32,199 nucleotides of DNA. Origin: an uncultured Candidatus Saccharibacteria bacterium. GTDB lineage: Bacteria > Patescibacteriota > Minisyncoccia > Phycocordibacterales > PALSA-1337. Location of the stretch: contig CAYHQT010000001.1 in assembly GCA_964358975.1 (NCBI GenBank), positions 1-32,199 on the forward strand. Reading direction: 5' to 3'. Made by a program: the position numbers and the translations under genes. Below, piece by piece: positions 1 through 32,199 of the stretch; position 1 is the first letter of the stretch; every line of letters begins with the position of its first letter. The notes beneath the pieces were generated by a model that saw only the letters and a program-made list of their open reading frames with translations, was not told the origin of the DNA and did not search any database.

Positions 1-626
1 ACAGCAGTGGGCAGAATAACAATGGAAACATGGTCGGCTGGACTTCCACATCCAGTGCCATCGTGGCTGGGAAGCTGGGGCAGGGGCTGAAGTTTGACGG
101 GGTGGATGATTTAGCGAAGATTAATCAGACCAGCGGTTTGCCTGTATTTACTATGGGCGGAAAAGCCTCGGTCGCTTTCTGGGTTAAAGGCTCTTCCCAG
201 GATAGTAAAACAATATGGTCCGAAAGTAGTAGCAGTAACTCGCCTTTGTATAACATTGTGACCAATAATACAAGTTGTGCTGGCCAAGCCAGCGGAAAGA
301 TTTGCATACAGATACGCACAGATGCCAGTGTAACTCTTAAACTTCAAGCTACCGCGAAAACAGTCCTTGATAATACCTGGCATCATGTTGTCTGGGTTGA
401 TAACGCGGGTGCGGCAGGAACGGCCTTATATATTGACGGCGTCAAAGATACAAATACTTTTACTTACACGCCATCGGGAGCGCTAACTTCAACCACCGAC
501 TGCATCGGGGCTTTGTGTCGAGGTTCAAATACAAACTTTTTCAACGGTAATATTGATGATGTGCGGGTTTATAATAGGGCCCTTACTGGTATCGAAGTCA
601 AACAGTTGTATAATATAGGAAGATAG
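1..626 (+). CDS. LamG-repeat secreted protein, C-terminal part (gene starts upstream of window)
   Basis: The frame is open from nt 3 with no upstream stop and ends at TAG 624-626. Nt 1-110 nearly match 15968-16077 inside the complete paralog 15751..17907. LamG/Laminin_G_3-type motifs are present (GKLGQGLKFDGVDD ... IDDVRVYNRAL..VKQLYNIGR). Confidence 0.85.
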   Translation, partial: SSGQNNNGNMVGWTSTSSAIVAGKLGQGLKFDGVDDLAKINQTSGLPVFTMGGKASVAFWVKGSSQDSKTIWSESSSSNSPLYNIVTNNTSCAGQASGKICIQIRTDASVTLKLQATAKTVLDNTWHHVVWVDNAGAAGTALYIDGVKDTNTFTYTPSGALTSTTDCIGALCRGSNTNFFNGNIDDVRVYNRALTGIEVKQLYNIGR

Positions 627-664
627 TTGGGAAGTGATATTTTACGAAATAAAATCAAAATAGA

Positions 665-3600
665 ATGTTTCCAAAAATAAAAACTGAATACGGCATAGCT
701 ATCATATTTTCAGCTTTTATTCTTGCCACAACATTGATCAATCAAAGTTGGAGAGAGTTCGTCTTAATTGCCGACCAAACTATCCAATCCATTCCTGCTC
801 GTACTCAACTAGCCTCTGCTTCTGATGGTGCTGACCCTGGTCTTGTTGGCTGGTGGAAGTTTGACGAGGGGTCTGGCACGAGTGCGGCGGATTCGAGCGG
901 AAGCGGAAATAATGGAAGACTCATTAACAATCCCCTCTGGGCTACAGGAAAAAACGGAACAGCCATTTCACTCAACGGCACCACCCAACTCATAAGGAAC
1001 ACCATGACAAGCGGACTGCCGGTATTCACAATGGGCGGAAAAGCCTCGGTCGCTTTCTGGGTTAAAGGCTCTCCCCAAGATAATAAAATAATATGGGCCG
1101 AGAGCAGTAATAGCGGTTCACCTCTGTACCAAATTATAGCTGATACTACAAATTGCACCGGTCACGCTAGCGGGAAAATCTGTATACAAATACGTACAAA
1201 TACTAGCAATACTATTCTTCTTCAAGCTACCGCGAAAACAGTCCTTGATAATACCTGGCATCATGTTGTCTGGGTTGATAACGCCGGAGCGGCAGGGACA
1301 GCCGTCTATGTTGACGGCGTCAAAGATACAAATACTTTTACTTACACGCCATCAGGAACGCTAACCTCAACCACCGATTGCATAGGGGCTTTGTGTAGAA
1401 GTTCAAACAGTAACTTTTTTAGCGGTAGTGTTGATGATGTGCGGGTTTATAATAGAGTGTTGTCGGCAGATGAAATTACCACATTATATAATAACGATTT
1501 AAGCGCTGTAGGAACCGCTCCGGTTTCTGATACTCAAACTCCAACAACGCCGGCGTCTCCAGACCCGATTATTCCCATATTGTCTGATCCAACATCTACT
1601 ACGCAGGGAAATGTAACACTTGTTACTCCTCATTTGATTGTGGCCGATCCTGCCAGAAATTGGTACGGCGGTCCAAATAATCAGCTTGGGTATGATATTT
1701 TAAATCTGGCATTAACGCGAGACGGTAATACAACTGATAAAGTAGAGGTTCAATGGTCGTCCGATGGTAATGTTTGGATTGGGAATAATAACACCTATAC
1801 GCCTGATATTTTCATTTCCGTTCCAGCCCTGCCGTACAATGTCAAGGAATTTTATCGCATCCGTGCCAAAGTTGCCGTCAGTGGAAGTTATCAATATTCA
1901 AATTGGTCGAATATTTTGCCGGTAGTCAGCTTGTATCCGCCCAATACTTTTACGGCCGTAGCCAAAAACCGTACCTCGGTCTATTTGACTTGGGCATATC
2001 GCGGGGCGAAAGATCGAAGTGGGCAAGAATATGAGCTTCTACCAGGTTCGGGTTATAAGATTGAACGGAGTATAGACCCGAACTTTCCGGCTAGTAATAC
2101 GAGAATCATTACGGTATCCCAACCTTATACATTAATACCGAATCCGAACAATAACGCCAAAAAATTAGTGGTTTATACCGATAACAGCGTATTTACCGAT
2201 GAGACATATTATTATCGTGTTCACGCATTTACAACCGTAGGTGACGGTGAGACTTCAAAGGTAGTATCATTGGCACCAAACAGATTGCCTGATCCTGTTG
2301 AATATTCGGCCACTTACATGACGGCGGATTCGTCTAACGCGGTTGCGATACCGTTTAACACAAATACAAGAGGACAAACCGGTTACCGGATTGATCGAAG
2401 CGATGATAGCGTTAATTGGACCACTATCAAATCATCTAGCTCTATATTGTCGTCAAATCCATATGTAGACAGGGGCTTAATTTCAGGCAAGACATACTAT
2501 TATCGAGTCATTGCGACAAATGATGTCGGTGATTCTCCCTATAATCTTCTCAAGGTTGATGTTCCGAATGGCGCGCCAGCCAATACAACGCAATGGTATG
2601 TCAATAATAGCGTGACCGGTGGAAATAATAATGGCGCCAGTTGGACTAATGCGTGGCATAATTTTTCCAGTATCAATTGGTATGCGATAAAACCCGGTGA
2701 TAGTATATATATAAGCGGAGGCACATCGGGTCAAATATATACCGAGACGCTATATGTGATGAAAGGGGGTATTGAAGGAAATCAGGTTACTATTAAGGTT
2801 GGTAACGACTCATCGCATCATGGAAAAATTACATTGAAAAATGGCATTATGTTTCGAGCTCCTTGGGTCACTCTCAATGGCGCCAAAGATTCGTCCTTCA
2901 GTTTTAGCAATTTGGAAAATATTGTAGCCAATCAAAATATTGAAGTTCAGAATCCAAATGATAATTCATGTATATATTCAAGCGCGCCTGAAGGCACGCG
3001 CATACTGTGGATTGATCTTAACGGTTGTGGGTCTCCGACTGGTCCACAGACATTGGAAGGAAATACTGCGGGCGTGTTATTTAGGGGTCCCAGTATCCGC
3101 GGTTCTGAAATAGCTTATAACTATGCCCATGATATTTTAGGGACCGGTTTGGCTGTGAGTGCTCCGGCGGATACCTATGGACTTAGCGCTATTCACCATA
3201 ATATTATTGAGCGTACTCATAATGACTTTATTATTGGAAGTGGCGGTTTGGATATTTACAATAATATCGCGAGAAATTGGGTCCGCCCAGGCATTGGACA
3301 CCCAGATGGTTTCCAAATCTGGGCTCCGTATATTCGCATTTACAATAATATTATACATGACACCCCCGGCACACTCGTGTATATACAATTGCAATCGGCG
3401 GCATCCAAAGGTGTTCAAATATTCAATAATATAATGTATTGGACTGAAACAGAGGAAAATTCTGCTATTACTTTTTCAACTATTGCAAACGGAGTCACAT
3501 TGAGTGATGTTGTTATTGCCAACAACCTTGTTTACAACCTAAATAAAGGCCAATTGTCATTGAATGTTCAGCAGAATATAACACCGATATCAGTCAGAAA

Positions 3601-4387
3601 CTTTGTGACAAAAAACAATATATTCTATGTACCCACAAACCCAAATAATTCCGGTAACTTCATAGACTTTAGAGTTTTTGATTATTCTGTGAATGACATT
3701 ATTTATGATTATAACATTTTGGCCGGTACAGGAAGTCTAGGAATAGGCTATAAGGGGATTTCGTACGCTAGTCCGGAAGCGTTCAATGCCGCCTTTCCTC
3801 AATATAATCATAATTCCTCCCTCAAACCTCTAATGGTTAATCCCGCTTCCTTTGATTTTCGCTTATTATCCTCTGATACCGCCACGCGAAACAGTGGGGC
3901 GGATTTATCGTCTTATTGCACCGCGGCTTATGGCTGGAGCCAGAGCAATTGTCCTTTGACTAAAGATATTGACGGAATTTCGCGCCCCCAAGGCTCCGCC
4001 TGGGATATCGGCGCCTACGAATACTATTCTGGCCAGACGGTCACTCCTCCCGTATCAACTCCAATCAACGGCTCCTGCTCTGCCACCCTGAACCAATGTC
4101 TCACCGGCGCCTTCTCTGATGTGGCCGACACCTCCACCAATTACCTCTGGTCTTGCCTAGGAAGCAACGGCGGCACAACCGCTTCCTGTAGTCTACCTAT
4201 TACATCTGTTACTCCTCCCACCCCCACCACCGGCGACTTCAACAACGACGGTTTGGTCAATTCCATAGACCTTTCTCTAATGATTACTGCCTGGAATACG
4301 AACAACACTATTTATGACCTCAACAGAGACGGCAGAGTGAACTCTCTAGACTATGTGAACATGGTGCGGAATTGGACGATGGTGTAG
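665..4387 (+). CDS. Giant surface protein: TM leader - LamG - Fn3-like x3 - right-handed beta-helix - 4-Cys module - dockerin
   Basis: 1240-aa ORF. Leader: KTEYGIAIIFSAFILATTLINQSW..ADQTIQSIP. LamG signature: GLVGWWKFDEGSGT ... VDDVRVYNRVLSADEI. Fn3-like repeats span aa ~330-640. NN[IL]-rich beta-helix repeats end in SRPQGSAWDIGAYEY. The dockerin has two Ca-loop repeats (DFNNDGLVNSID / DLNRDGRVNSLD). Confidence 0.9.
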   Translation: MFPKIKTEYGIAIIFSAFILATTLINQSWREFVLIADQTIQSIPARTQLASASDGADPGLVGWWKFDEGSGTSAADSSGSGNNGRLINNPLWATGKNGTAISLNGTTQLIRNTMTSGLPVFTMGGKASVAFWVKGSPQDNKIIWAESSNSGSPLYQIIADTTNCTGHASGKICIQIRTNTSNTILLQATAKTVLDNTWHHVVWVDNAGAAGTAVYVDGVKDTNTFTYTPSGTLTSTTDCIGALCRSSNSNFFSGSVDDVRVYNRVLSADEITTLYNNDLSAVGTAPVSDTQTPTTPASPDPIIPILSDPTSTTQGNVTLVTPHLIVADPARNWYGGPNNQLGYDILNLALTRDGNTTDKVEVQWSSDGNVWIGNNNTYTPDIFISVPALPYNVKEFYRIRAKVAVSGSYQYSNWSNILPVVSLYPPNTFTAVAKNRTSVYLTWAYRGAKDRSGQEYELLPGSGYKIERSIDPNFPASNTRIITVSQPYTLIPNPNNNAKKLVVYTDNSVFTDETYYYRVHAFTTVGDGETSKVVSLAPNRLPDPVEYSATYMTADSSNAVAIPFNTNTRGQTGYRIDRSDDSVNWTTIKSSSSILSSNPYVDRGLISGKTYYYRVIATNDVGDSPYNLLKVDVPNGAPANTTQWYVNNSVTGGNNNGASWTNAWHNFSSINWYAIKPGDSIYISGGTSGQIYTETLYVMKGGIEGNQVTIKVGNDSSHHGKITLKNGIMFRAPWVTLNGAKDSSFSFSNLENIVANQNIEVQNPNDNSCIYSSAPEGTRILWIDLNGCGSPTGPQTLEGNTAGVLFRGPSIRGSEIAYNYAHDILGTGLAVSAPADTYGLSAIHHNIIERTHNDFIIGSGGLDIYNNIARNWVRPGIGHPDGFQIWAPYIRIYNNIIHDTPGTLVYIQLQSAASKGVQIFNNIMYWTETEENSAITFSTIANGVTLSDVVIANNLVYNLNKGQLSLNVQQNITPISVRNFVTKNNIFYVPTNPNNSGNFIDFRVFDYSVNDIIYDYNILAGTGSLGIGYKGISYASPEAFNAAFPQYNHNSSLKPLMVNPASFDFRLLSSDTATRNSGADLSSYCTAAYGWSQSNCPLTKDIDGISRPQGSAWDIGAYEYYSGQTVTPPVSTPINGSCSATLNQCLTGAFSDVADTSTNYLWSCLGSNGGTTASCSLPITSVTPPTPTTGDFNNDGLVNSIDLSLMITAWNTNNTIYDLNRDGRVNSLDYVNMVRNWTMV

Positions 4388-4449: not shown

Positions 4450-4953
4450 ATGATTAAAAAGGAAAACAATTACGCTTTCATAGACAGTCAAAATCTTAAT
4501 CTGGGTATTCAAAAGCTCGGTTGGAAATTAGACTACAAAAAGTTTCGCGTTTATCTTGCCGAGAAATACGCGGTAAGGAAAGCATACATATTTATTGGAT
4601 TTGTAGCTCTTAATCAATCACTTTACGATAAGCTCCAAGAAGCTGAATTTATTTTAAAGTTCAAGCCAACAATTCCTGATGCTGACGGTAAAATTAAAGG
4701 AAATATTGACGCAGATCTTGTTTTGCGAGCAATTGTTGAATTAAATGATTATGATAAAGCAATTATTGTTTCAAGTGATGGAGATTTTTATTCACTGGCG
4801 CAATATTTGTATGATATCGGCAAGCTAGAACTTGTGCTTAGTCCGGACATGAAAAATTGCTCCAGCCTGCTCAGGCAAACAGCCAAGGAGAAAATCAGGT
4901 TTATGAATGAAATGAGAGAAAAGCTTGAATATAAAAAGAAAAGCACTGCTTAA
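4450..4953 (+). CDS. NYN-domain (LabA/PIN-like) putative ribonuclease
   Basis: 167 aa. N-terminal YAFIDSQNLNLG and C-terminal IIVSSDGDFYSLAQYL match the conserved acidic motifs of NYN/LabA-like proteins. Confidence 0.7.
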   Translation: MIKKENNYAFIDSQNLNLGIQKLGWKLDYKKFRVYLAEKYAVRKAYIFIGFVALNQSLYDKLQEAEFILKFKPTIPDADGKIKGNIDADLVLRAIVELNDYDKAIIVSSDGDFYSLAQYLYDIGKLELVLSPDMKNCSSLLRQTAKEKIRFMNEMREKLEYKKKSTA

Positions 4954-4975: not shown

Positions 4976-5030
4976 TAACTTTAGAAATACACTTGTAGTA
5001 TATATGAATCAAAAACCCTGTCAAGTACAT

Positions 5031-7424
5031 ATGTTCTCATCAATCAAAACTAAATACGGCATCGCCCTCTTACTTTCCACCTTTATCCTAACCCTCACTC
5101 TCATCAATCAGTCTTGGAAAGAGTTCATCTTGGTTGCCATCAGACAATCCAATACATTCCTTCCGCGCATACTCAACTAGCTCAAGTCGATGGTCCCTCG
5201 TCGCAAAGCTCCTCGGGACAATTAGCCCAAGGGCTAATTGGTTGGTGGAAATTTGACGAGGGGAGCGGAACGGTGGCGGGGGATTCAAGCGGGAGCGGAA
5301 ACAACGGCACGCTCATGAATGGAGCGGCGTGGACAACGAGCGGAAAGATTGGAGGAGCGCTGTCTTTTGATGGTCAGAATGACGAAGTTGTTCTTGATAA
5401 TTTTAGTGATCTTGATTTTAGCCAGGAAAACGCTTTTACATTCAGCGCTTGGGTATATCCTCTAGGTAATAACGCAGGCGATATTATTTTCTCAAGAGGC
5501 GGATCGTTTACAAACGCGGGGAATGCCGTTTATCATTTTGGCGTATTAAATGTAGATGCCACCCGTTGGGTTATTAGGATTAGTGACGGAACCAGCATCC
5601 TCAGCGCCGATTTTACCGGTTCGGTCTCCATCAATCAGTGGCAACTCATATCTGCAATCTGGGATGGAAGCACGCTTAAGTTGTACAAAGACGGAATACT
5701 GATAGCTTCCAGACTTAAGGGCAGTTTCACGGCGCTTTGGGATGGGGACACTGCCAAGAAGAGAGAAACATCTATTGGAGCTGATGGGGCTGAAGAGTAT
5801 CTTAATTGGAATGGTAAAATTGATGATATGCGAGTCTACTCTCGCGCCCTGTCCGCCGCCGAAATTACCGCTCTCTATAACTACACCGGAGGCGCGGCCA
5901 CCCCCGCTCCGGTTAATGGTTCCTGCTCAACCACTTTCAACCAGTGTGTAACCGGAACATTCTCCGACATTGCCGATACCGGCGCGAACTATCTTTGGAG
6001 CTGTAACGGTTCAAACGGAGGCGCAAACACTGCCTGCTCTCTGCCGATTCCATCTCAAAGCGACACCTCTCCCCCAGTTATCAACGGCCCTAATACGTAT
6101 TATGTTTTATTAACAGGCGTTGACACTAATCCCGGAACACAGGCCCAACCTTGGCGCACCATTAGGAAAGCGGCAACCGTTGCTCTTGCCGGAGATACCG
6201 TCGTTGTCGGCAACGGTTCATTTGATGAAATGGTTGAAACGAAACATACAGGCACGCAAGCTAATCCCATTACCTTTAGAGGCTCCGGACAAACAATTAT
6301 TCAAAGTTTCGGAATATTCCACGAATGGAACAATGTTGATAACTTTAAAATAACAGCCTCAAATGCTGTGATTTATGGCGCGATAACTTTTACAGCTAGC
6401 AATATCAGAATTACAAACAACACGATTTACAATATGCATGTAATGGCTATTAGAATGACTAATAACGGTGGAGGTAGTCCGACAGTCGATTCATGGCCGA
6501 CAAATGTGTATATAGGATACAACACGTGATATTATCGGGCTTGCCAAAGGGGCCGAAAATCACAATGATTTTATCCAGACATGGTATGTTGCCGGATTTC
6601 ATTCAAAGAATAACTTAATAGAAGGGAATTGGATTAAAGACAATTATTTTCAGCTATATAACTTGGAGGATGGCGACCATGGAGCGGATTATAACAACTG
6701 GACCTTTAGAAATAATATATTCATCAATAATAAAATGAACGGAAACCTCGGTATCCCGAATAGTAAATTCTATAATAATACTTTTTATCATAGTCCCTAT
6801 ACGGATGGCAGTTATAGCCCGATTGTTTGTTTCAATCAGCCGGGATTTCATGCGACGGGCGGGGTTGTCGTAAATAATCTTTTTGTAAACAATGGATTTG
6901 AAACGCCGGAATTCAAACTGGGATCTTATTCTAATGGGTCTGTATGTTCCGGAGATTACAACTTGGTAGTAGGTATGCCGCCGACTTTTTCAACTTTAAG
7001 ATCATCCCCATCATTCTCAGATGCTCATGGTTTAAATGGAGTTGACCCAATTTTTGTTGATCCTGAAAATGGAGATTTCAGATTGCAGGCCGGAAGTCCT
7101 GCCATAGGAGCTGGCACTGCACTTAATGGAACATTTACGACTGATTATAATGGAGTAACACGTGGGGCATCTTGGGACATTGGCGCCTATGAATACTATT
7201 CCGGCCAGCCGATCACACCCCAGATTACTCCTCCGGTCATACCACCCATAGTTCCTCCCACCCCCATTATCGGAGATTTCAATGCCGACGGCGTAGTTAA
7301 CTCCATAGACCTTTCTCTAATGATAATCGCCTGGAATACGAGCAACACTATTTATGACCTCAACAGAGATGGAATTGTCAACTCTCTGGATTATGTGGTC
7401 ATGGTGCGGAATTGGACGGTGTAG
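5031..7424 (+). pseudogene. Leader-type LamG - 4-Cys - beta-helix - dockerin gene disrupted by two frameshifts
   Basis: ATG 5031 opens a canonical leader (MFSSIKTKYGIALLLSTFILTLTLINQSWKEF) that stops at ~5177. Relative to paralogs, 1 nt is missing at ~5139-5144, and the body continues in the frame of ORF 5114..6529. A second frame change at ~6516-6529 joins ORF 6663..7424, whose frame is open back to 6516 (..HNDFIQTW..). The pieces together reconstitute the family architecture. Confidence 0.8.
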
Positions 7425-24636: not shown

Positions 24637-24689
24637 GCTAACGGTTTTATAGACACGTATTTATGGTTGCATCGGATTTTCAGGTCATA

Positions 24690-24695: not shown

Positions 24696-24701
24696 ACAAA
24701 T

Positions 24702-24899
24702 ATGGTTACAATAACAATTCCAAAGAAATTATCGAAGCTCGGTGAACTAGTGCTTATCTCCAAGAGAGAGTTGGAAGCTCTTATTGCCCGCGTTAGTGAA
24801 GTTGTGGAAGAAAAAGATGTATTGCGTTGGTCTAGGGAAGCTAGGGCAATGAAGCGCGCGGGAAAACTTCCATTGCTCGGAAATATGGCGACGCTATGA
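24702..24899 (+). CDS. Putative antitoxin of the RelE/ParE-like toxin (family unassigned; VTITIPKKL is reminiscent of SpoVT/AbrB-type)
   Basis: 65 aa with a 4-nt ATGA overlap onto the downstream toxin. The start was chosen at 24702 because the TATAAT box lies inside the longer track ORF (24663). Confidence 0.55.
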   Translation: MVTITIPKKLSKLGELVLISKRELEALIARVSEVVEEKDVLRWSREARAMKRAGKLPLLGNMATL

Positions 24900-25162
24900 T
24901 CATTTACTTTCACCCACGCTTCCAGAAAAATTATCGCAAACTCGATTCCAAAACAAAGATTCAAGCAGAATTCAGAGTGACACGGTTCAAGATTGATCCA
25001 TTCGATAGTATTCTCGGAACGCATCATCTTCATGAAAAGCTCAAAAAACAATTGAGCTTTTCTATTAATTCACGCTGTCGAATCCTATTCGAATTTGTAG
25101 GTAAAAAACAAAATGAGGTTATTTTTCTAGATATCGGAGATCATGATATTTATTCCGTCTAG
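24896..25162 (+). CDS. RelE/ParE-superfamily toxin (RelE/StbE/YafQ-like)
   Basis: 88 aa. The pattern F.K.YRKL....K........F..DPF...L..H.L...L....SFSI....RILFEF.....I.FLDIGDHDIY is typical of the family. Confidence 0.7.
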   Translation: MIIYFHPRFQKNYRKLDSKTKIQAEFRVTRFKIDPFDSILGTHHLHEKLKKQLSFSINSRCRILFEFVGKKQNEVIFLDIGDHDIYSV

Positions 25163-25346: not shown

Positions 25347-25357
25347 TGTGCTATAAT
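25347..25357 (+). promoter_or_regulatory. Extended -10 box TGTGCTATAAT, 7 nt upstream of ATG 25365 (leaderless)
   Basis: TATAAT 25352-25357. The 19-mer shared with 11296-11314 is present. Confidence 0.6.
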
Positions 25358-25364
25358 GCGATTT

Positions 25365-25664
25365 ATGTCGGAATTCGAAATAATCAAACAGAAAATAGCT
25401 CTGCAAAAAGAGTATTTACATAAAACCTATGGAGTGGAAGAAATAGGTGTTTTCGGCTCATTTGCCCGCGGAGACAATGATGAGAATAGCGATATAGATG
25501 TTTCAGTTGAGCTCAATCAGAAAGTACCCGTGGGACTTTTTGAATTTGCCGGTATGAAATTTTATCTTGAGGATTTACTGGGAAGAAAAGTTGATTTGGT
25601 GATAAAGAGTGGAATAAAAGCGCTTATAAAAGACAGGATTTTAAGTCAATTAGTCATCATATGA
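25365..25664 (+). CDS. mntA: MNT-type nucleotidyltransferase antitoxin (short classical form)
   Basis: [20 protein letters not shown]. 4-nt ATGA overlap with the HEPN gene. The track start 25356 lies within the -10 box. Confidence 0.85.
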
Positions 25665-26011
25665 GTGAAAAAAGAAATGTAAAATTATTTATTCAGGATT
25701 CTTTCGATGCTATTGATAAGATCAATGGTTATGTTTCTAATATTAAAGACGCTAATGAACTGAAAAATTCTGGGCAAACTTATGATGCGGTGATGATGAA
25801 TTTCATCGTTATCGGTGAGGCAATTAAAAATATTTATGAAGAAGTCCGTGAAAATTATCCGGATGTAGAATGGCGACAAATCATGGCAATGCGCAATATT
25901 TTAATACACGAGTATTGGGGAGTAGATGAAAAAGTAGTATGGAACGCGATTGGAAGAAATTTACCTGAATTAAAGGAAATTCTTACAAAGATTAGGAATA
26001 GTTTGAATTGA
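25661..26011 (+). CDS. hepT: HEPN (DUF86/HepT) toxin
   Basis: 116 aa with R-x4-H in [14 protein letters not shown]. Confidence 0.85.
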
Positions 26012-26034: not shown

Positions 26035-26289
26035 ATGTTCTCATCCCTAAAAACACCCCTAAAACCCGAACACGGTATCGCCCTCTTACTGTCCTGTTTC
26101 ATCCTCTCTCTCACCCTCATCAGTCAAAGCTGGAATGATTTCATATTAGTCGCCGACCAAACCATCCAATCCATTCCTTCCTCCGCCAACTGGCGGAATA
26201 CCCAACTTGCTTCGGCCGAAGGCGCTGATACATTAATTGCCCTCTCCCTAATGATCACCGTATGGAACCATAGCAACACCATAGGTTGA
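26035..26289 (+). pseudogene. Leader-dockerin minigene: family 5' leader fused directly to an internal dockerin fragment
   Basis: The 84-aa ORF has aa 1-66 equal to the family leader (MFSSLKTPLKPEHGIALLLSCFILSLTLISQSW..ADQTIQSIPSSANWRNTQLASAEGADT). It then continues LIALSLMITVWNHSNTIG*, which corresponds to dockerin SIDLSLMITAWNTSNTI. LamG, beta-helix and the dockerin 3' half are all missing. Confidence 0.8.
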
Positions 26290-26308: not shown

Positions 26309-26593
26309 ATGACAATACATGAGTTTATAAAGCAAAGACCTTATCTAGTTTGGTATGTGAAAGATTTGGATAGTCTTTCCGAAGAATCCATTGTCGAACA
26401 TGTTTTGAACTTTGGAGATTGGAACGACGTGCAGGGAATGATAAAGATATTAGGCATGGGAAAAACCGCCCACATATTCACGGAAAAATCCTCGCCTGAC
26501 AAATTCGGCAGGCAAAATTATCGTCCGGAGATCAAGAATTATTTCCAATTGTATTTCAATAAATATGCACCACAAGGAAATCTTTACCAATGA
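26309..26593 (+). CDS. Small conserved hypothetical protein, putative cognate antitoxin of the downstream NTase
   Basis: 94 aa. The pattern LVWYVKDLDSLSEESIVEHVLNFGDWNDVQGMIKILG is one I recall seeing upstream of short AbiEii-like NTases, but I cannot name the family with confidence. It overlaps the next ORF by 29 nt. Confidence 0.45.
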   Translation: MTIHEFIKQRPYLVWYVKDLDSLSEESIVEHVLNFGDWNDVQGMIKILGMGKTAHIFTEKSSPDKFGRQNYRPEIKNYFQLYFNKYAPQGNLYQ

Positions 26594-27179
26594 GCAGAAT
26601 AAATTACTACCACTAGTCGCCGAATTTTCCAAAGATTTCGGCTTGGTTGGTGGCACGGCCATCGCTCTTCATTTGGGACATCGCAGGTCTATTGATTTCG
26701 ACCTTTTCTCTGAAAAGGAATTCGGCAATCAAAGCCTCCTAAATAAGATTGTCGCTTTTGGCGCACCCGATCAAATTATTGTCAATAAATTGGATGAGCT
26801 CACGCTTGTTATCAAAGGTGTAAAAATGACTTTCTTTCATTATCCATACAAGATCATATACTCCGAAAATTTTGGTTACAGGATAAAGATGCCGGATCTT
26901 TTGACTCTCTCCGCCATGAAAGCTTTTGCCTTGGGACAACGAGCCAAATGGAAGGACTATGTGGATTTATATTTTATTATCAAAGACTATTTTTCGATCA
27001 GTCGGATTTCGGAAAAGAGCCGGGAAATTTTCGGTAATATGTTCAATGAAAAACTTTTTAGAAGCCAACTGGCTTATTTTGACGGCATAAATTACAAAGA
27101 AGCTGTGGAATTTTTGCCGGGATTTGAGGTTTCCGACGAAATTGTTAAAAAGAGACTGACGGAGTTTAGTATTGATTAA
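26565..27179 (+). CDS. Short AbiEii/AbiGii-like nucleotidyltransferase, putative toxin
   Basis: 204 aa with FGLVGGTAIALHLGHRRSIDFDLFS (GG.A....R.S.D.D core). Confidence 0.65.
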   Translation: MHHKEIFTNEQNKLLPLVAEFSKDFGLVGGTAIALHLGHRRSIDFDLFSEKEFGNQSLLNKIVAFGAPDQIIVNKLDELTLVIKGVKMTFFHYPYKIIYSENFGYRIKMPDLLTLSAMKAFALGQRAKWKDYVDLYFIIKDYFSISRISEKSREIFGNMFNEKLFRSQLAYFDGINYKEAVEFLPGFEVSDEIVKKRLTEFSID

Positions 27180-27187: not shown

Positions 27188-27817
27188 ATGAAGAAGATTT
27201 TTGCTTTTATTGATGTCCAGAATACGGAGACGACAACTCGCCGAATATTAGGTTTTTTCGTTGATTGGAAGAAGTTATTTAATTTCCTGAAAACTGATTG
27301 GAAATGTGAAAAAGTATTCTTTTATTCAGGAATAGACGCTGGGGATTCAGAGTCGGAAGAAGAATTTAAAAAGTTAGAAGATAACGGATGTATTGTTAGA
27401 TCAAAACTTGTTTTCGCGTATAAAAACAGAGATAAGAATATAGATGTAGAATGTCCAAAATGTGGAAATAAGTTTGAAGAGGTTATAGATATGGGGTACA
27501 ATCGAAAATCGAATTGTGACGTGGATCTTACCGTTGACGCGATGGAATGCGCTGGATCTGATACGGAATTTTATATTTTTACCGGTGATGGAGATTTCGA
27601 GTATCTAATTAAAAAAGTCATTGAAAAAGGAGCGATTGTTCATATTGTATCGAGCGCGAAGAGGGTAAAAAGCGGACCTAGATATTATACATCTAGATTT
27701 TCCACGAAATTGAGGAAACTGACTGAAGAAGAAGGGAAGCCTGTGGATTTTCTTAATATTAATAACTTGAAATTTAGAATAAAAAAGGAAAAGGCCGCGA
27801 AGCGCGACCTTTTCTAG
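27188..27817 (+). CDS. NYN-domain (LabA/PIN-like) putative ribonuclease with inserted Cys pair (CPKCG, half of a possible zinc-ribbon-like element)
   Basis: 209 aa. N-terminal IFAFIDVQN and C-terminal IFTGDGDFEYLIKKV NYN motifs, with a CPKCGNKFEEV insert. It starts 9 nt after the NTase stop. Confidence 0.65.
   Translation: MKKIFAFIDVQNTETTTRRILGFFVDWKKLFNFLKTDWKCEKVFFYSGIDAGDSESEEEFKKLEDNGCIVRSKLVFAYKNRDKNIDVECPKCGNKFEEVIDMGYNRKSNCDVDLTVDAMECAGSDTEFYIFTGDGDFEYLIKKVIEKGAIVHIVSSAKRVKSGPRYYTSRFSTKLRKLTEEEGKPVDFLNINNLKFRIKKEKAAKRDLF
27793..27814 (+). terminator. Rho-independent-type terminator overlapping the last NYN codons
   Basis: The stem ggccgcg-aag-cgcgacc has one mismatch and is followed by tttt (27810-27813). 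Confidence 0.5.
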
Positions 27818-27870
27818 GGATGAATACATCATAGCAAGGTGATAAATAAGTGTCAAGCGTCATTATCCAC

Positions 27871-30474
27871 ATGTCCCCATCTATCCAAACATTCATAAAG
27901 ACTTTAGCTAAAACACCTCTCAAACCCGAACACGGCCTCGCCCTCTTACTGTCCTGTTTCATTCTCGCTATCACCCTCATCAGTCAAAGCTGGAATGACT
28001 TCGTCTTAGTCGCCGACCAAACAATCCAATCAATTCCTTCCTCCGCCAGCTGGCGGAATACTCAACTAGCCCAAGTCGGTGGTCCCTCGTCGCAAAGCTC
28101 CTCGGGACAATTAGCCCAAGGGCTAATTGGCTGGTGGAAGTTTGATGAGGGAAGCGGGACGACTGCGGGGGATGCGAGCGGAAATGGGAATAACGGGACG
28201 CTGGTGAATGGGCCGGCGTGGACGACAGATAGTAAGGTGGGAGGTGGGGCGGTAAGTTTTGATGGTACGAACAATTATATTAATGTTAGTTCAGCTCCAT
28301 CTCTGGAGAGTTTAGGACCACTTACATATTCTGCGTGGATATATCCAATCAGTTGGGGTCAGGGTAGTCAGGGGTATTTATTTTCAAAATCTACAGGTTT
28401 ACGTTTTCAGTTGCTTAGCACATATAGCCAGATAAGATTTTATGTAGATTATTCAACGGCTAATCTCGCAGTTGGCTCTGCAGTAGGTTCCATTTCATTG
28501 AATAATTGGGTGCACGTTGTTGTAACATGGGATGGATCATCCTCAGCTTCAAACACGCATATTTATCTTAACGGGGTTGAAACAACAAACTATCAAATAA
28601 GGCAAAATGGCGACGGGACTAGGTCTCCAATAGTGACAAGGCCTTTTATTATTGGCGCAAGTGATCCTATCTACGGATCAGGTAGATTTTTCAGTGGAAA
28701 AATGGACGATGTTCGTGTTTATAATCGCATTTTATCAACAGGTGAAATTATGGACTTATATAATTTCACTTATGTTTCTACTGCCAGTCCAGTTCAAGAA
28801 CCAATCATCGTTCAAGCCCCGTCGATTCAAACTTCACCAACCCAGCTTCAACCCCCTTCTGTAACTCTTGCAGTTGGTGTTTACAGGGTTAACCAAGATG
28901 GTACTGGTGATTTCAAGACGGTTCAAACTTGTGTGGACGCGGTCGCGCCTAATTCAACATGCCTCGTTTACCCAGGTAACTATAAAGAATTGGTTACTAT
29001 TACCAAATCTGGGAGCATACAAAGCCCAACAATAATTAAAGGTCTAAACAAGCCGAACATATCTTTTCCAGATGGATCCAATGCGTACTTAAATAATCAA
29101 GATCAAACTTCAAAGGTTAAAGGGTTTGTTGTAAAAGCAGATAATATTAAAATAATTAACTTTGAATTCACGGATATCACCACAAAACAGCAAGGAGCCA
29201 TATATTTAGACAATCGCAGTAATATAGATATTGAAGATAATTATTTCCATGAATTGAATCCCCCAAGGATAGTCAATAATAATTGCCTATGGTGTGGTTG
29301 GGGTTCAGTACGGGGTGTTGGTTATAATATTAAATTTATTGGTAATACAGTATGGCGTGTTGAAGGTGTGGGTATAGCAATTACAGGCAATAATTGGCTA
29401 GTGGAAAATAATAATGTTTCTCATGGTAATATTTTTGCTTGGAATTATGCGGAAAAAGCTTTAAGGGATGGTCTTAACGGATCGATGTGGGACCAGAATT
29501 ATATAGTAGTAGGTGATACTGATGCTCTTAGGTTTTTTGGCAATGGACATATTATAAAAAATAATTATTTTCATGATTATTTGCTCGGGGAGACGGCTTG
29601 GGCTGAAAGAAAAACTGTGCAGAATCCAAATCCTTCTCCACACATGGACTGTATGCAAACATTTTCAAATGGAGATCCTCCATGGCAGGGTGCGACCAAT
29701 GTAATCATTGAGGGAAATTTTTGTTTTAATATTGGTACCCAATTTATCTTTATCTCTGATATAAACAATAAGAGCGATCATATCACGATTGTTAATAATA
29801 TATTCAAAAAAAATGGCGCGCACGGCATAGCGGTAAGTGGAATAGAATATCTTACACTCGCGAACAATATAATTGCCAATGTCAGTTATGCGGCCATTAG
29901 TGTTGGTAATTCCCCCAATTCAAAAATTATCAATAATATTATTTACTATGATTATTCTTCAGATGGTGTTTTTCGCATAGATCCTGTAATTGATGAAGTT
30001 TCTAAGGTTGGACTGACTTTAGATTATAATTTACATTTTCCAAATACGAGAGTTACTTTTCCGGGAGTGTATGATACGAATGGAATTTTTGGAAAAGATC
30101 CTAAGTTTATAGATCCAAACGGAAATAACTTTCACATTCAGAATAGTTCTGTTGCGATTGATTCAGGATCGGATATGAGCTCATATTTATCAAATGACAA
30201 AGACGGCATCTCCCGCCCCCAAGGCTCCGCCTGGGACATCGGCGCCTATGAATATGTCGGTTCTGGTGGAGTTGTCACGCCTCCAATTATTTCATCAACT
30301 CCTCCTCCCGCCATCATCATCGGCGACTTTAACAAAAACGGCATAGTCAATTCTATAGACCTTTCTCTAATGGTCACCGCATGGAATACGAACAACACCA
30401 CTTACGACCTTAATAGGGATGGCATAGTGAACTCTCTCGACTATGTGATCATGGTGCGGAATTGGACGATCTAG
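27871..30474 (+). CDS. Giant surface protein: TM leader - LamG - beta-helix - dockerin
   Basis: Start set at ATG 27871 (MSPSIQTFIK..), supported by the parallel remnant at 24377; the track used GTG 27850. It has the leader, the LamG signature, NN[IW]-rich beta-helix repeats, SRPQGSAWDIGAYEY and the dockerin (DFNKNGIVNSID / DLNRDGIVNSLD). Confidence 0.9.
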   Translation: MSPSIQTFIKTLAKTPLKPEHGLALLLSCFILAITLISQSWNDFVLVADQTIQSIPSSASWRNTQLAQVGGPSSQSSSGQLAQGLIGWWKFDEGSGTTAGDASGNGNNGTLVNGPAWTTDSKVGGGAVSFDGTNNYINVSSAPSLESLGPLTYSAWIYPISWGQGSQGYLFSKSTGLRFQLLSTYSQIRFYVDYSTANLAVGSAVGSISLNNWVHVVVTWDGSSSASNTHIYLNGVETTNYQIRQNGDGTRSPIVTRPFIIGASDPIYGSGRFFSGKMDDVRVYNRILSTGEIMDLYNFTYVSTASPVQEPIIVQAPSIQTSPTQLQPPSVTLAVGVYRVNQDGTGDFKTVQTCVDAVAPNSTCLVYPGNYKELVTITKSGSIQSPTIIKGLNKPNISFPDGSNAYLNNQDQTSKVKGFVVKADNIKIINFEFTDITTKQQGAIYLDNRSNIDIEDNYFHELNPPRIVNNNCLWCGWGSVRGVGYNIKFIGNTVWRVEGVGIAITGNNWLVENNNVSHGNIFAWNYAEKALRDGLNGSMWDQNYIVVGDTDALRFFGNGHIIKNNYFHDYLLGETAWAERKTVQNPNPSPHMDCMQTFSNGDPPWQGATNVIIEGNFCFNIGTQFIFISDINNKSDHITIVNNIFKKNGAHGIAVSGIEYLTLANNIIANVSYAAISVGNSPNSKIINNIIYYDYSSDGVFRIDPVIDEVSKVGLTLDYNLHFPNTRVTFPGVYDTNGIFGKDPKFIDPNGNNFHIQNSSVAIDSGSDMSSYLSNDKDGISRPQGSAWDIGAYEYVGSGGVVTPPIISSTPPPAIIIGDFNKNGIVNSIDLSLMVTAWNTNNTTYDLNRDGIVNSLDYVIMVRNWTI

Positions 30475-30499: not shown

Positions 30500-30505
30500 A
30501 TAGTC

Positions 30506-32199
30506 ATGAGCATGAAGTTGGAATTTAGAATAAAGAATATGGGATTTTGGACAAGGATTATTTTTTTTGTCTTTATTCTAAATTCTATATTCCAAATTCC
30601 AACCACCTACGCCTCCGTTGTCTCCAAACCCTCTCAATACAATACCAATCTCAAATCCGGTCTTGTCGGCTGGTGGACTATGGATGGCGCGGATGTCGTG
30701 AATGGTGTGGCACTAGATAAGAGTGGCAATAATAATAACGGCAATCTTATAAACATCGCCACCACAACCTTTTATAAACCCGGTAAGATCGGTCAGGCTT
30801 TCAATTTTGACGGGGTGGATGATTATGTGAAATCAGGAACTATCAATGGAAGTTCTCTGACGACAATATCCTATTCATTTTGGATTAAAACTACCAAAAC
30901 AAGCGGAGGTAAAATTATAGTATGGGGAACTGTTGCCTGTTACATAAATGATACGGTGAAAAAAGTGAGTTGTACCGCCGACGGTATTACTAGTGGTTCG
31001 ACAGTTACTCTCGGTACTGTAAATAATGGTCAATGGCATCATCTCGTCTATGTCGTGAACGGCAATAGTCAAAATCTGTATTTAGATAGTGTTGTACAAA
31101 CTCCTGCTACGGAAACTCTAACTTCTCCAAATGATATAGTTTATATTGGAAGAACTGGTAGCACCTTAAGTCCGCTTAATGGCTCCCTCGATGATGTCAG
31201 TATTTATAATCGTGTTTTGACTATAACAGAAATCCGTCAGCTTTACAATCTCGGTCAAGCCAAAGTGAATGAAACGCCGACTACCAACACGAACATCAAT
31301 TCTGGTTTACTCGGCTGGTGGACATTTGATGGCAAGAATTCGACGACTAGTACCACGGCTGATGATACGAGTGGTCGCGGTCTGACTGCCACCTTGCATG
31401 ACGCGCCGTTCTTGCCGAAGAAGACGCCAGCAAAGATCGGGCAGGGACTAGCATTCGACGGCGTTAACAATTATGCTTCTTTAGCTTCCAACCCTCTCGC
31501 CGGGGTAATGACTGCCGCCAATTCAACTTGCGCTTGGGCGCTCATCAAAGACCCGAATATACTCGGCGCTGGTGCTTGGGACCAGACTATCTTAAATTTC
31601 CGAACGGATGCCAGCAACGGCGTTGTTATGTCTAATGACTATTCGAGCGGCGGAGACTTCGTGGCTTCGTACAGACTCGGCGGCATATTCTATGGTCTTA
31701 AATCCTCGACTGTGGTTTTCAAGAAAAACACATGGGTCCATGTCTGTTATGTCTGGAATGGTTCAGCTGTCACCCTCTACGCTAACGGCACCGCTCTCAC
31801 AGGTACCGCCTCCACTAACCCTATCGGCACAGCCAATGTCATCGGCGCTCTTGACGACACCCTCTCCGGTATTTGGAACGGCACCGTTGATGATATCCGC
31901 GTCTATTCCCGCGCCCTCACCGCCACCGAAGTTCGGGAAATCTACAATCAAGGCGTTTCGAAGGTCAATATTAGTCCTGTAAGGAGCTTGAATGGTACAG
32001 GGCTCGGCTCCGGCCTTGTCGGTTATTGGACTTTTGATGGTAAAGATACAAATTGGGCGACGGGGGTGACGAAAGATATGTCGGGGAATAATAACGGGCA
32101 ACTTTTGAATATGTCTACGACAACGAGTCCGACGCCGGGGAAGTTGGGGCAGGGGTTGAAGTTTGATGGGGTGAATGACAAAGTCAAAATGAGTACTGA
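30506..32199 (+). CDS. Secreted LamG-repeat protein, N-terminal part (runs off the 3' end of the window; absent from the ORF track)
   Basis: Hand translation from ATG 30506 gives an uninterrupted frame to nt 32199: MSMKLEFRIKNMGFWTRIIFFVFILNSIFQIPTTYA|SV..GLVGWWTMDGAD...LDDVSIYNRVLTITEIRQLYNLGQ..GLLGWWTFDGKN...VDDIRVYSRALTATEVREIYNQG..GLVGYWTFDGKD... It is paralogous to 15751..17907. The track ORFs at 31608..31982 (+) and the minus-strand ORFs here are shadows. Confidence 0.85.
   Translation, partial: MSMKLEFRIKNMGFWTRIIFFVFILNSIFQIPTTYASVVSKPSQYNTNLKSGLVGWWTMDGADVVNGVALDKSGNNNNGNLINIATTTFYKPGKIGQAFNFDGVDDYVKSGTINGSSLTTISYSFWIKTTKTSGGKIIVWGTVACYINDTVKKVSCTADGITSGSTVTLGTVNNGQWHHLVYVVNGNSQNLYLDSVVQTPATETLTSPNDIVYIGRTGSTLSPLNGSLDDVSIYNRVLTITEIRQLYNLGQAKVNETPTTNTNINSGLLGWWTFDGKNSTTSTTADDTSGRGLTATLHDAPFLPKKTPAKIGQGLAFDGVNNYASLASNPLAGVMTAANSTCAWALIKDPNILGAGAWDQTILNFRTDASNGVVMSNDYSSGGDFVASYRLGGIFYGLKSSTVVFKKNTWVHVCYVWNGSAVTLYANGTALTGTASTNPIGTANVIGALDDTLSGIWNGTVDDIRVYSRALTATEVREIYNQGVSKVNISPVRSLNGTGLGSGLVGYWTFDGKDTNWATGVTKDMSGNNNGQLLNMSTTTSPTPGKLGQGLKFDGVNDKVKMST

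What the first reader, a model, noticed from the sequence alone, without database searches (positions are those of the whole stretch)
1..32199. Whole-window architecture: co-oriented paralog/TA mosaic, with TA cassettes possibly stabilising a recombination-prone surface-protein locus
Roughly 30 credible genes all lie on the + strand. Eight large paralogs carry nearly identical 5' and 3' ends in direct orientation, an arrangement that invites deletions by homologous recombination. Nearly every gap between leader-type paralogs is occupied by toxin-antitoxin modules. TA cassettes in chromosomal superintegrons are known to counter-select large deletions (established for Vibrio). The same logic would apply here: any paralog-to-paralog deletion removes antitoxin genes. 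The window may therefore be a contingency locus, with variable adhesin/lectin-like proteins whose repertoire is shuffled through conserved ends and is policed by interleaved addiction modules.
Basis: inference. Interest (0 to 1): 0.7.

Follow-up and report, generated by a model that had tools for sequence, protein, structure and literature searches.

The report
Surface-protein array littered with addiction-gene cassettes
A groundwater ultra-small bacterium keeps a fast-changing row of surface-protein genes interleaved with toxin-antitoxin and phage-defence cassettes; the cassettes survive intact while the neighbouring surface-protein genes are cut down to short 3' stubs, so the cassettes seem to protect themselves rather than the locus.

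Summary
The architecture is real. The window is a whole 32,199-nt MAG contig from Hainich aquifer Patescibacteria, with 30 genes or gene fragments, all on the + strand. There are five leader+LamG+dockerin paralogs (one frameshifted), three multi-LamG genes, and 13 small units: 3 intact MNT/HepT pairs, MNT with a truncated HepT, AbiE, an AbiE-like pair, an HTH+nucleotidyltransferase pair, HicBA, a RelE-like pair, 2 PDC-S01 ATPases and 2 NYN genes.

The paralog ends are only 61-90% identical, with exact tracts of 11-51 nt. They are not "nearly identical".

A sixth junction carries a LamG-gene 3' stub. There are also two leader scraps. Related contigs from the same aquifer show the same stubs (33-173 nt) and place the same cassettes among different neighbours.

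TA genes are under strong purifying selection (dN/dS 0.03-0.23). Paralogs are deleted, frameshifted or replaced.

Best reading: a high-turnover island where selfish TA and defence cassettes accumulate and persist. Recombination in the dockerin module and deletions remodel what lies around them. Stabilisation of the paralog repertoire by TA modules is not shown and is partly contradicted. No integrase or attC-like structure was found.

The parts
1..626 (+). 3' part of a multi-LamG gene that runs off the contig start. It is chimeric.
   Evidence: Laminin_G_3 6.7e-19. Bases 1-110 are 94% identical to 15968-16077, and 128-427 are 80% identical to 1006-1305 (D14/D8).
665..4387 (+). Paralog A: leader/TM, LamG, fn3-like region, beta-helix, Cys-rich module, type I dockerin (1240 aa).
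4450..4953 (+). NYN-domain gene 1 (single gene).
   Evidence: PF01936 4.4e-13. The junction is confirmed by L021/L022.
5004..7424 (+). Paralog B, a pseudogene with at least 2 frameshifts (near 5114-5180 and near 6527).
   Evidence: L009 and L021 are 99.9% identical across both sites.
7537..8920 (+). AbiEi/AbiEii cassette 1 (8-nt gene overlap).
   Evidence: PADLOC 7.3e-62 and 1.2e-80. dN/dS is 0.21 and 0.07 against L015.
8927..8971 (+). Orphan dockerin 3' stub, 45 nt including the stop codon.
   Evidence: The orthologous stub in L015 is 173 nt.
9018..9846 (+). MNT/HepT cassette 1.
   Evidence: Polbeta 9e-21 and HepT-like 3e-21. Motifs are intact. dN/dS is 0.03 against C1726.
9852..9911 (+). Orphan dockerin 3' stub, 60 nt.
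9997..11209 (+). HTH protein plus DUF6036-like nucleotidyltransferase pair (an AbiE-like two-gene module; weak HMM support).
   Evidence: L006 is 99.9% identical.
11218..11264 (+). Orphan dockerin 3' stub, 47 nt.
   Evidence: It is confirmed in the independent assembly L006.
11300..12157 (+). MNT/HepT cassette 2.
   Evidence: dN/dS is 0.08-0.09 against L007.
12205..15105 (+). Paralog C (966 aa): leader, LamG, fn3, InlB B-repeat, beta-helix, dockerin.
   Evidence: This exact protein is on record from a 32,199-nt NCBI contig.
15149..15611 (+). HicB-like plus HicA cassette.
   Evidence: HicA_toxin 1.7e-13. HicB has no HMM hit.
15612..15695 (+). Orphan 3' stub of a multi-LamG gene, flush with the HicA stop codon and followed by a hairpin.
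   Evidence: nhmmer E=4.3e-16. Sequence shown.
15751..17907 (+). Multi-LamG gene (3 LamG domains, own signal peptide, no dockerin).
   Evidence: Laminin_G_3 7.5e-43, 3 stretches.
17914..20676 (+). Paralog D (920 aa).
20684..21130 (+). MNT3 antitoxin-type gene. It lies inside a block (about 20690-21260) that is 100% identical to relative C1726.
21163..21437 (+). HepT pseudogene. About 130 nt of its 5' part is deleted and it has no start codon.
   Evidence: The intact version is in L025.
21439..21530 (+). Orphan dockerin 3' stub, 93 nt. It is a mosaic of parC-like and parD-like tracts.
21695..22834 (+). AAA_14/DUF4143 ATPase 1 (PADLOC candidate defence gene PDC-S01).
   Evidence: PADLOC 1.2e-126.
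22849..22957 (+). Orphan dockerin 3' stub, 112 nt.
23095..24354 (+). AAA_14/DUF4143 ATPase 2 (PDC-S01).
   Evidence: PADLOC 3.2e-101.
24365..24449 (+). Scrap of a paralog 5' leader.
   Evidence: D19. nhmmer result.
24663..25162 (+). Putative antitoxin plus RelE/HigB-like toxin pair (4-nt overlap; weak HMM support).
   Evidence: E=0.005.
25356..26011 (+). MNT/HepT cassette 4.
   Evidence: dN/dS is 0.04-0.07 against C1726.
26035..26289 (+). Paralog remnant. The leader and LamG start are fused to an internal dockerin piece, and the 3' end is also lost.
26309..27179 (+). Short partner gene plus AbiEii-like nucleotidyltransferase pair.
   Evidence: AbiEii 6.7e-11. It is 90% identical to L019, where it lies between two stubs.
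27188..27817 (+). NYN-domain gene 2.
   Evidence: The junction is confirmed by L023/L024.
27850..30474 (+). Paralog E (874 aa).
30510..32199 (+). Multi-LamG gene that runs off the contig end.
   Evidence: (D13/D17).

Best explanation
This is a high-turnover flexible island in a groundwater Patescibacteria genome (a near relative is labelled Candidatus Paceibacterota). It has two building blocks.

(1) Secreted LamG proteins. One family ends in a type I dockerin and is probably hung on a peptidoglycan-anchored cohesin. That is inferred from a relative's contig.

(2) Small autonomous cassettes: MNT/HepT, AbiE, HicBA, a RelE-like pair, PDC-S01 ATPases and NYN genes. They behave as selfish or defence genes.

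Shown:
- Cassettes are kept intact by purifying selection, while adjacent paralogs are frameshifted, internally deleted, or reduced to 33-173-nt 3' stubs.
- The same cassette has different neighbours in related genomes.
- One cassette block was exchanged very recently.
- The stubs still read as pristine dockerin and are mosaics of the genome's own dockerin ends.

Inferred:
- The conserved dockerin-coding module, in genes and in stubs, acts as dispersed homology for gene conversion and crossovers that reshuffle cassettes and paralog bodies.
- Illegitimate deletions prune non-essential DNA right up to the cassette genes and their promoters.
- Cassettes persist because losing them, or disturbing their expression, is counter-selected, through addiction and/or defence benefit.

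The net effect is an accreting, co-oriented cassette array that looks integron-like but has no integrase and no attC. TA modules protect themselves, not the surface-protein repertoire.
For: - Gene content.
- Stubs: 10 motif copies against 0 expected. About 21 right-end stubs occur in relatives, against 2 right-truncated scraps and 3 leader scraps. A LamG-type stub follows HicA.
- True deletion remnants lie at 26035-26289 and 24365-24449.
- Stubs at the same place differ in length between relatives: 45 vs 173 nt after AbiEii, and 93 vs about 127-156 nt after the MNT3 cassette.
- Cassette neighbours differ between the window and C1726, L019, L007 and L010.
- dN/dS is 0.03-0.23 for 11 TA genes. 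dS is 0.02 for MNT3 against 0.5-1.6 for other cassettes in the same pair of contigs. The 100%-identical block spans about 570 nt.
- Differences between stubs and the nearest full dockerin are 65 synonymous to 39 non-synonymous codons, with no frameshifts. Stub 21439-21530 shares a 34-nt exact tract with parC and a 16-nt tract with parD.
- MNT3 with an intact HepT occurs in a different Paceibacterota contig with no paralog nearby.
- Junctions are reproduced in independent assemblies.
- Literature parallel: addictive TAs sit in high-turnover spots, show toxin pseudogenisation and streamlining of linked loci, and do not conserve their neighbours (PMC13617665).
Against: - The scars are asymmetric. 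They almost always keep the gene's 3' end, never exceed the ~175-nt dockerin module, and none falls between 173 nt and full length. Random deletion does not predict this. It could instead point to an insertion or duplication mechanism, or to a functional role for the last 30-45 nt.
- The related loci were found with a 3'-end motif, which biases counts towards right-end stubs.
- No reads or same-strain variants were available, so neither rates nor the direction of change (gain vs loss) are known.
- Exact identity tracts of 16-50 nt are marginal for RecA-dependent recombination.
- Toxin activity is untested.
Confidence: 0.6

Rival explanations
1. The interleaved TA modules act as police. Homologous recombination between the conserved paralog ends would delete antitoxin genes and kill the cell. 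The TA cassettes therefore stabilise a contingency locus of variable surface proteins.
For: - TA genes have intact motifs and low dN/dS.
- Three of the four gaps between leader-type paralogs contain at least one TA pair.
- All visible deletion scars stop short of cassette genes.
- The principle is established for Vibrio chromosomal integrons (PMC13108822).
Against: - Paralogs next to TA cassettes have been lost or broken at least eight times in this contig's history.
- TA neighbours are not conserved between relatives.
- The A-B gap has no antitoxin.
- Most paralog-to-multiLamG junctions in relatives have no cassette.
- One toxin is already dead.
- In Photorhabdus, TA systems did not conserve their neighbourhoods.
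- Eight paralog hits against one cassette hit is not significant given target sizes.
Confidence: 0.2
2. A site-specific cassette system, like an integron or a cis-mobilisable element. The last ~35-45 nt of the dockerin gene would be an attachment site used by a recombinase encoded elsewhere. Each cassette would carry its own copy of the site, as islands that accrete in tandem at tRNA genes do.
For: - Cassettes are separated by direct repeats that all keep the same right end, the dockerin stop codon.
- The minimum stub length clusters at 45-49 nt and 60-66 nt.
- The MNT3 cassette ends at the same nucleotide (within 1 nt) next to two different stubs, although its last gene is a pseudogene.
Against: - No integrase, transposase or other recombinase domain is present in the 30 window genes or in any related locus.
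- The stubs do not fold. Their z-scores range from -0.95 to +1.64.
- Left edges vary continuously from 33 to 173 nt.
- Right-truncated dockerin scraps exist.
- The stub after HicBA derives from a LamG gene, not from a dockerin.
- In L019 the junction eats into the end of AbiEii.
Confidence: 0.1
3. The mosaic is an assembly artefact: a chimeric contig built across repeats from several co-occurring strains.
For: - The sample holds several related populations with shared repeats.
- A 100%-identical block is shared with another contig.
Against: - Six short contigs from other replicate assemblies match at 99.8-100%. They cover the junctions at 4194-5307, 6512-8161, 10340-11408 (which includes a stub) and 26554-28109.
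- The repeats are short (330 nt or less) and only 61-90% identical.
- Relatives assembled independently show the same kind of array.
Confidence: 0.04

Closest known systems
Sedentary chromosomal integron arrays with TA cassettes (Vibrio superintegron)
   Same: Both are co-oriented arrays of small cassettes. Many of the cassettes are promoter-bearing TA or defence genes, and they are separated by a repeated element. TA cassettes are thought to penalise cassette loss (PMC13108822).
   Different: There is no IntI and no attC hairpin. The repeat is a variable-length fragment of the coding 3' end of a neighbouring gene family. Large paralogous genes are interleaved. Junctions look like products of illegitimate or homologous recombination, not site-specific recombination.
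TA clusters in high-turnover chromosomal spots (Photorhabdus; Belot et al. 2026, PMC13617665)
   Same: TA systems cluster in permissive, fast-changing regions and their neighbours are not conserved. Toxins become pseudogenes. Linked DNA is streamlined away while the TA module remains.
   Different: Here no transposase or integrase is linked. The flanks are remnants of one surface-protein family. The host is a streamlined Patescibacteria genome.
Tandem accretion of islands at tRNA genes, and integrase-less cis-mobilisable elements (my own knowledge)
   Same: Each unit is bounded by a direct repeat of the 3' end of the target gene, and the upstream gene keeps an intact 3' end.
   Different: The repeat length is not fixed. 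No integrase was found. One stub comes from a different gene family than the intact gene upstream of it.
Rhs/CDI polymorphic-toxin loci with orphan modules; Neisseria minimal mobile elements (my own knowledge)
   Same: Orphan gene fragments or conserved flanks supply the homology that lets cassettes be swapped by homologous recombination.
   Different: The orphans here carry only the conserved module and no alternative variable domain. The cassettes are unrelated TA and defence genes, not cognate immunity genes.
Cellulosome-type cohesin-dockerin display
   Same: The paralogs end in a type I dockerin with two calcium-binding repeats. A relative encodes a Cohesin+PG_binding_1 protein and a Cohesin+Dockerin adaptor.
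   Different: The cargo is LamG/beta-helix proteins in an ultra-small bacterium, not a set of cellulases. The cohesin partner was not found on this contig.

Membership tests
Chromosomal integron | IntI tyrosine recombinase with attI next to the array | tested here: not met
   No recombinase domain was found in any of the 30 window genes or in the ORFs of related loci. Only 32 kb of this genome is available.
Chromosomal integron | attC sites: imperfect palindromes that fold as single strands | tested here: not met
   Five stubs were folded on both strands as DNA. The z-scores range from -0.95 to +1.64. The repeat finder reported no inverted repeats.
Chromosomal integron | Co-oriented cassettes separated by a repeated element | tested here: met
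MNT/HepT (type VII) toxin-antitoxin | Adjacent MNT (GSx10DxD) and HepT (Rx4HxY) genes | tested here: met
   Three intact pairs have both motifs and Pfam E-values of 1e-11 to 1e-27. The fourth HepT is truncated at its 5' end.
AbiE (type IV) toxin-antitoxin / abortive infection | AbiEi antitoxin followed by an AbiEii nucleotidyltransferase | tested here: met
   Pair 7537-8920 scores PADLOC 7.3e-62 and 1.2e-80. For pair 26309-27179 only the toxin matches (Pfam 6.7e-11) and the partner has no hit, so that pair is inconclusive.
HicAB and RelE/ParE type II toxin-antitoxin | A toxin HMM match plus a recognisable antitoxin partner | tested here: inconclusive
   HicA scores 1.7e-13, but HicB has no HMM hit. 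The RelE/HigB-like match has E=0.005, below the Pfam cut-off, and its partner has no hit.
Any toxin-antitoxin system | Toxicity of one partner and its neutralisation by the other; addiction | not testable with these tools
   The only evidence is indirect: dN/dS of 0.03-0.23.
Contingency locus (phase or antigenic variation) | High-frequency switching within a clone, through simple-sequence repeats or silent variable donor cassettes | tested here: inconclusive
   The stubs carry only the conserved module, so they are not variable donors. Two 7-nt repeats of 4.9 copies each lie in the signal-peptide region of 15751-17907. No read-level data are available.
Cohesin-dockerin display | A C-terminal type I dockerin on the cargo and a cohesin-bearing anchor | tested here: inconclusive
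   The dockerin criterion is met in all five leader-type paralogs, with E-values of 7e-11 to 6e-9. Cohesin+PG_binding_1 was found only on a relative's contig, L016.
tRNA-style site-specific island accretion | A fixed att core repeat and a cognate integrase | tested here: not met
   Left edges vary from 33 to 173 nt, and no integrase was found.

The most novel reading that the evidence does not exclude
The array may be an integrase-free 'pseudo-integron'. In this reading, stubs of the dockerin-coding 3' end serve as portable homology. RecA-type recombination, possibly after DNA uptake, then excises, inserts and swaps TA and defence cassettes behind any dockerin gene, both within a genome and between co-occurring Patescibacteria. 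The lethal cost of disturbing a TA promoter would explain why the last 30-45 nt of each stub is always kept.
Probability: 0.25. Interest if true: 0.7.

Novelty: new variant of a known kind. Interest (0 to 1): 0.5.

Why it matters
Patescibacteria have tiny genomes and are usually described as poor in defence and TA systems. Here about a third of a 32-kb contig is TA and defence cassettes wedged into a surface-display gene family.

The locus offers a natural test of whether chromosomal TA modules stabilise their neighbourhood or merely themselves. Paralogs are cut down to stubs while the cassettes stay pristine, which favours the selfish reading.

If the stubs really act as recombination handles, this would be a way to build integron-like cassette arrays without an integrase. 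It would also be a route for gene exchange among uncultivated aquifer bacteria.

Tried and rejected
- attC-like or other structure in the stubs: DNA folds on both strands gave z-scores from -0.95 to +1.64. Rejected.
- dif/Xer-like site: judged by eye only. The motif begins with GGTGCG but there is no matching inverted arm. Rejected.
- Circular contig, with the last and first genes as one gene: the reading frames do not join, and homology to the C1726 gene drops to 47% amino-acid identity. Rejected.
- Plasmid or phage origin: no blastn match.
- Known RNA families: none found.
- tRNA genes as island anchors: none found.
- DGR-type diversification: there is no reverse transcriptase among the 30 genes and no near-identical template/variable repeat pair.
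- Sigma-70 promoter scan: not enriched over shuffles. Individual TATAAT-like boxes after the dockerin stop codons were seen by eye only.
- Exact-protein look-ups for flanking DNA: only contigs of 1.6 kb or less from the same strain exist. Nothing beyond the contig ends could be read.
- Homologue search with paralog C: hits are dominated by fn3 and InlB-repeat domains. It was useful only for showing that the window is a whole NCBI contig.
- Statistical test of cassette vs paralog inactivation: too few events.

Full report
WHAT THE WINDOW IS

The window is an entire 32,199-nt contig of an NCBI metagenome-assembled genome. The exact 966-aa product of 12205-15105 is on record with a longest contig of 32,199 nt.

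Near-identical fragments (99.8-100%) and more distant relatives all come from Hainich aquifer well H43, in 0.1 and 0.2 µm filter metagenomes. One cassette protein clusters at 90% identity or more with a protein named 'Candidatus Paceibacterota'. Three GTDB contigs that carry the repeat are labelled Candidatus Saccharibacteria. I therefore call the host Patescibacteria/CPR.

G+C is 35-53%, and GC skew rises along the + strand. The contig has no tRNA, no Rfam family, no plasmid or phage DNA match and no recombinase domain.

CHECK OF THE OBSERVATION

Thirty genes or gene fragments, all on the + strand, cover 93% of the contig. The 'eight paralogs' are really two families.

- Five leader-type genes: A 665-4387, B 5004-7424, C 12205-15105, D 17914-20676 and E 27850-30474. 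Each has an N-terminal hydrophobic leader, one LamG domain, a variable middle (fn3, InlB B-repeat, right-handed beta-helix, a Cys-rich module) and a C-terminal type I dockerin.
- Three multi-LamG genes: 1-626, 15751-17907 and 30510-end. They have a different signal peptide and no dockerin.

The conserved ends are 61-78% identical at the 5' end and 74-90% at the 3' end. The longest exact tracts are 11-51 nt and 16-46 nt. 'Nearly identical' is too strong. Paralog B has at least two frameshifts, which independent assemblies reproduce.

The gaps between leader-type paralogs hold:
- three intact MNT/HepT pairs with catalytic motifs;
- a fourth MNT whose HepT has lost about 130 nt at its 5' end;
- AbiEi/AbiEii, with PADLOC 7e-62 and 1e-80;
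- a weaker AbiE-like pair;
- an HTH plus DUF6036 nucleotidyltransferase pair;
- HicB-like plus HicA;
- a weak RelE-like pair;
- two AAA_14/DUF4143 ATPases that match the PADLOC candidate PDC-S01 at 1e-126 and 3e-101;
- two solitary NYN genes.

The A-B gap holds only an NYN gene.

The last 45-112 nt of the dockerin coding sequence, including its stop codon, recurs as an orphan stub right after five cassettes. The stubs lie at 8927-8971, 9852-9911, 11218-11264, 21439-21530 and 22849-22957. A 28-nt degenerate motif matches 10 times against 0 expected.

- Each stub starts 0-14 nt after the stop codon of the preceding cassette gene.
- Each stub ends at the dockerin stop codon, which is followed by the spacer and a TATAAT-like box of the next cassette.
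- After HicA there is an analogous 84-nt stub of a multi-LamG gene's 3' end (15612-15695).
- A leader scrap lies at 24365-24449.
- An 84-codon remnant at 26035-26289 has a leader fused to an internal dockerin piece.

The contig therefore carries the wreckage of at least seven further paralogs, plus one frameshifted paralog, between cassettes that are almost all intact.

COMPARISON WITH RELATIVES

A pattern scan of metagenome contigs returned 17 stretches from the same aquifer. The 20.5-kb contig ERZ1292629.1726 (L008+L013, 'C1726' below) and several shorter contigs have the same architecture. Paralogs and multi-LamG genes alternate with cassettes that are each followed by a dockerin stub.

An HMM scan found about 21 stubs that keep the right end (33-173 nt), 2 right-truncated scraps and 3 leader scraps. 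Nothing falls between 173 nt and full length. The loci were ascertained by the right-end motif, which biases these counts.

The same cassette has different neighbours in different genomes.
- MNT1/HepT1 follows AbiE in the window, the MNT3 cassette in C1726, and an ATPase in L010 (for a related MNT behind the same promoter region). The dockerin is joined at -45, about -156 and -123 nt respectively.
- MNT4/HepT4 follows the RelE-like pair in the window, but a parA-like paralog in C1726.
- The second AbiE pair sits behind the remnant in the window, but between two stubs in L019.
- MNT3 follows three different paralogs.

In all, 7 of 11 assessable neighbour comparisons differ.

Stubs at the same place differ in length: 45 vs 173 nt after AbiEii, and 93 vs about 127-156 nt after the MNT3 cassette. 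This shows ongoing loss of sequence.

SELECTION AND EXCHANGE

Eleven TA genes shared with relatives have dN/dS of 0.03-0.23. Both toxins and antitoxins are therefore maintained.

Between the window and C1726, dS is 0.5-1.6 for three cassettes but 0.02 for MNT3. A block of about 570 nt is 100% identical. That indicates a very recent exchange.

MNT3 with an intact HepT also sits in a TA cluster behind a 2,463-aa protein in a different Paceibacterota contig, with no dockerin or leader homology nearby. The cassette therefore travels independently of the paralogs. By contrast, paralogs at corresponding positions share only 40-65% amino-acid identity.

All stubs still translate into flawless dockerin C-termini. 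Their differences from the nearest full dockerin are 65 synonymous to 39 non-synonymous codons. Stub 21439-21530 combines a 34-nt exact parC tract with a 16-nt exact parD tract. The stubs are therefore young, or they are refreshed by gene conversion with functional dockerins. They are not old neutral relics.

MECHANISM

Shown:
- deletions remove paralog bodies and spare cassettes;
- cassette order is reshuffled;
- cassettes are exchanged between populations;
- dockerin-derived DNA marks most junctions.

Inferred:
- The conserved dockerin module supplies dispersed homology for conversion and crossovers.
- Illegitimate deletions trim everything that is not needed.
- Cassettes persist through addiction and/or defence benefit.

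This matches the stepwise model proposed for Photorhabdus: acquisition into permissive high-turnover spots, streamlining of linked loci, toxin pseudogenisation, and no conservation of neighbours (PMC13617665).

Unexplained: the scars nearly always keep the 3' end and never exceed the ~175-nt dockerin module. Three explanations are possible.
- Erosion slows as the target shrinks, and leaderless beta-helix fragments are selected against.
- Incoming cassettes flanked by dockerin DNA insert by homologous or homology-facilitated recombination, which duplicates part of the module.
- The last 30-45 nt belongs to the promoter or operator region of the next cassette.

The LamG stub behind HicBA cannot be a target duplication, because the intact gene upstream of it ends in a dockerin. 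The remnant at 26035 is a plain deletion product. Deletion is therefore certainly one of the processes at work.

Its factual core holds: a variable, recombination-prone, co-oriented mosaic with active-looking TA pairs. Its own refutation criteria are not met. The locus is not invariant, and the pairs do not look dead.

However, the data do not show stabilisation of the repertoire. Paralogs adjacent to TA modules were lost repeatedly. TA neighbourhoods are not conserved. Most paralog-to-multiLamG junctions lack cassettes. The count of inactivating events (8 in paralogs, 1 in cassettes) does not differ significantly from chance. The principle is established for Vibrio integrons (PMC13108822). 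It may still apply to large deletions that span cassettes, but that cannot be tested without strain-resolved reads.

COMPARISON WITH KNOWN SYSTEMS

The array works most like a chromosomal integron array or a TA-rich turnover hotspot. It is not an integron: there is no IntI, and the stubs have no attC-like fold. It is not a tRNA-style accretion site, because repeat lengths vary and there is no integrase. It is not a polymorphic-toxin orphan array, because the stubs lack variable domains.

The dockerin paralogs probably belong to a cohesin-dockerin display system. A relative's contig encodes Cohesin+PG_binding_1 and Cohesin+Dockerin proteins, and also LamG proteins with a pilin-type N-methylation motif.

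VERDICT

The architecture is real, and richer than described. The stabilisation hypothesis is plausible in principle, but the evidence here does not support it and partly goes against it. The best-supported reading is that self-preserving cassettes accumulate in a decaying, recombining surface-protein array. This is a new variant of known kinds and is of moderate interest. The open question is whether the dockerin stubs are mere scars or working recombination handles.

Noticed in passing
window 15768-15858 and 30517-30603: The signal-peptide coding regions of the two multi-LamG genes are long imperfect palindromes. They are built from 7-nt repeats (GAATTTA and TATTCCA, 4.9 copies each in the first gene). 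RNA folds give -26.7 kcal/mol (z -3.2) and -35.0 kcal/mol (z -5.9). The orthologous gene starts in five relatives have no such hairpin. Possible meanings are translational control, slippage-based phase variation, or a small inserted palindromic element.
   Followed up: partly
window 20690-21260 vs L013 (contig ERZ1292629.1726): A block of about 570 nt covering MNT3 and the start of the dead HepT is 100% identical between the two contigs. Adjacent cassettes in the same two contigs are only about 90% identical (dS 0.02 vs 0.5-1.6). This is either very recent exchange between co-occurring populations or a shared assembly path.
   Followed up: partly
L016:904-3034 (relative's contig): A 341-aa secreted protein has a Cohesin domain and a PG_binding_1 domain. 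Next to it lies a 351-aa Cohesin+Dockerin protein, followed by a LamG protein with a type IV pilin N-methylation motif. Together they look like a peptidoglycan-anchored docking scaffold for the dockerin paralogs.
   Followed up: partly
L025:1-13902 (95-kb Paceibacterota contig): A close homologue of MNT3 sits with an intact HepT. It is followed by HicBA, another MNT and a PD-(D/E)XK protein, directly behind giant genes (more than 842 aa and 2,463 aa) with no Pfam hits. TA clusters behind very large putative surface proteins may be a wider habit in this group.
   Followed up: no
window 1-626: The first gene fragment is a chimera. Bases 1-110 are 94% identical to the multi-LamG gene at 15968-16077. 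Bases 128-427 are 80% identical to the LamG domain of leader-type paralog A (1006-1305).
   Followed up: no
window 4058-4357, 5915-6048, 20350-20649: A Cys-rich module (NGSCS...NYLWSC...GG..SCSLP) lies just before the dockerin in paralogs A and D, but directly after the LamG domain in paralog B. This indicates domain shuffling among the paralogs.
   Followed up: no
window 4941-4976 and 27788-27814: Both NYN genes sit immediately upstream of a leader-type paralog. Each has a strong 12-15-bp hairpin at its 3' end, scored as a terminator only on the minus strand. The meaning is unknown.
   Followed up: no
window 26280-26310 vs L019:1950-2110: In the relative, the AbiE-like pair is preceded by a 49-nt dockerin stub and a ~100-nt spacer. 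In the window, that spacer and the last ~73 nt of dockerin are gone. The pair now sits 19 nt behind the 84-codon leader remnant, so it may be driven by the dead paralog's promoter.
   Followed up: partly
window 25163-25355 and 24450-24662: Two unusually long spacers (193 and about 210 nt) flank the RelE-like pair. Neither has a recognisable stub, ORF or RNA family.
   Followed up: no
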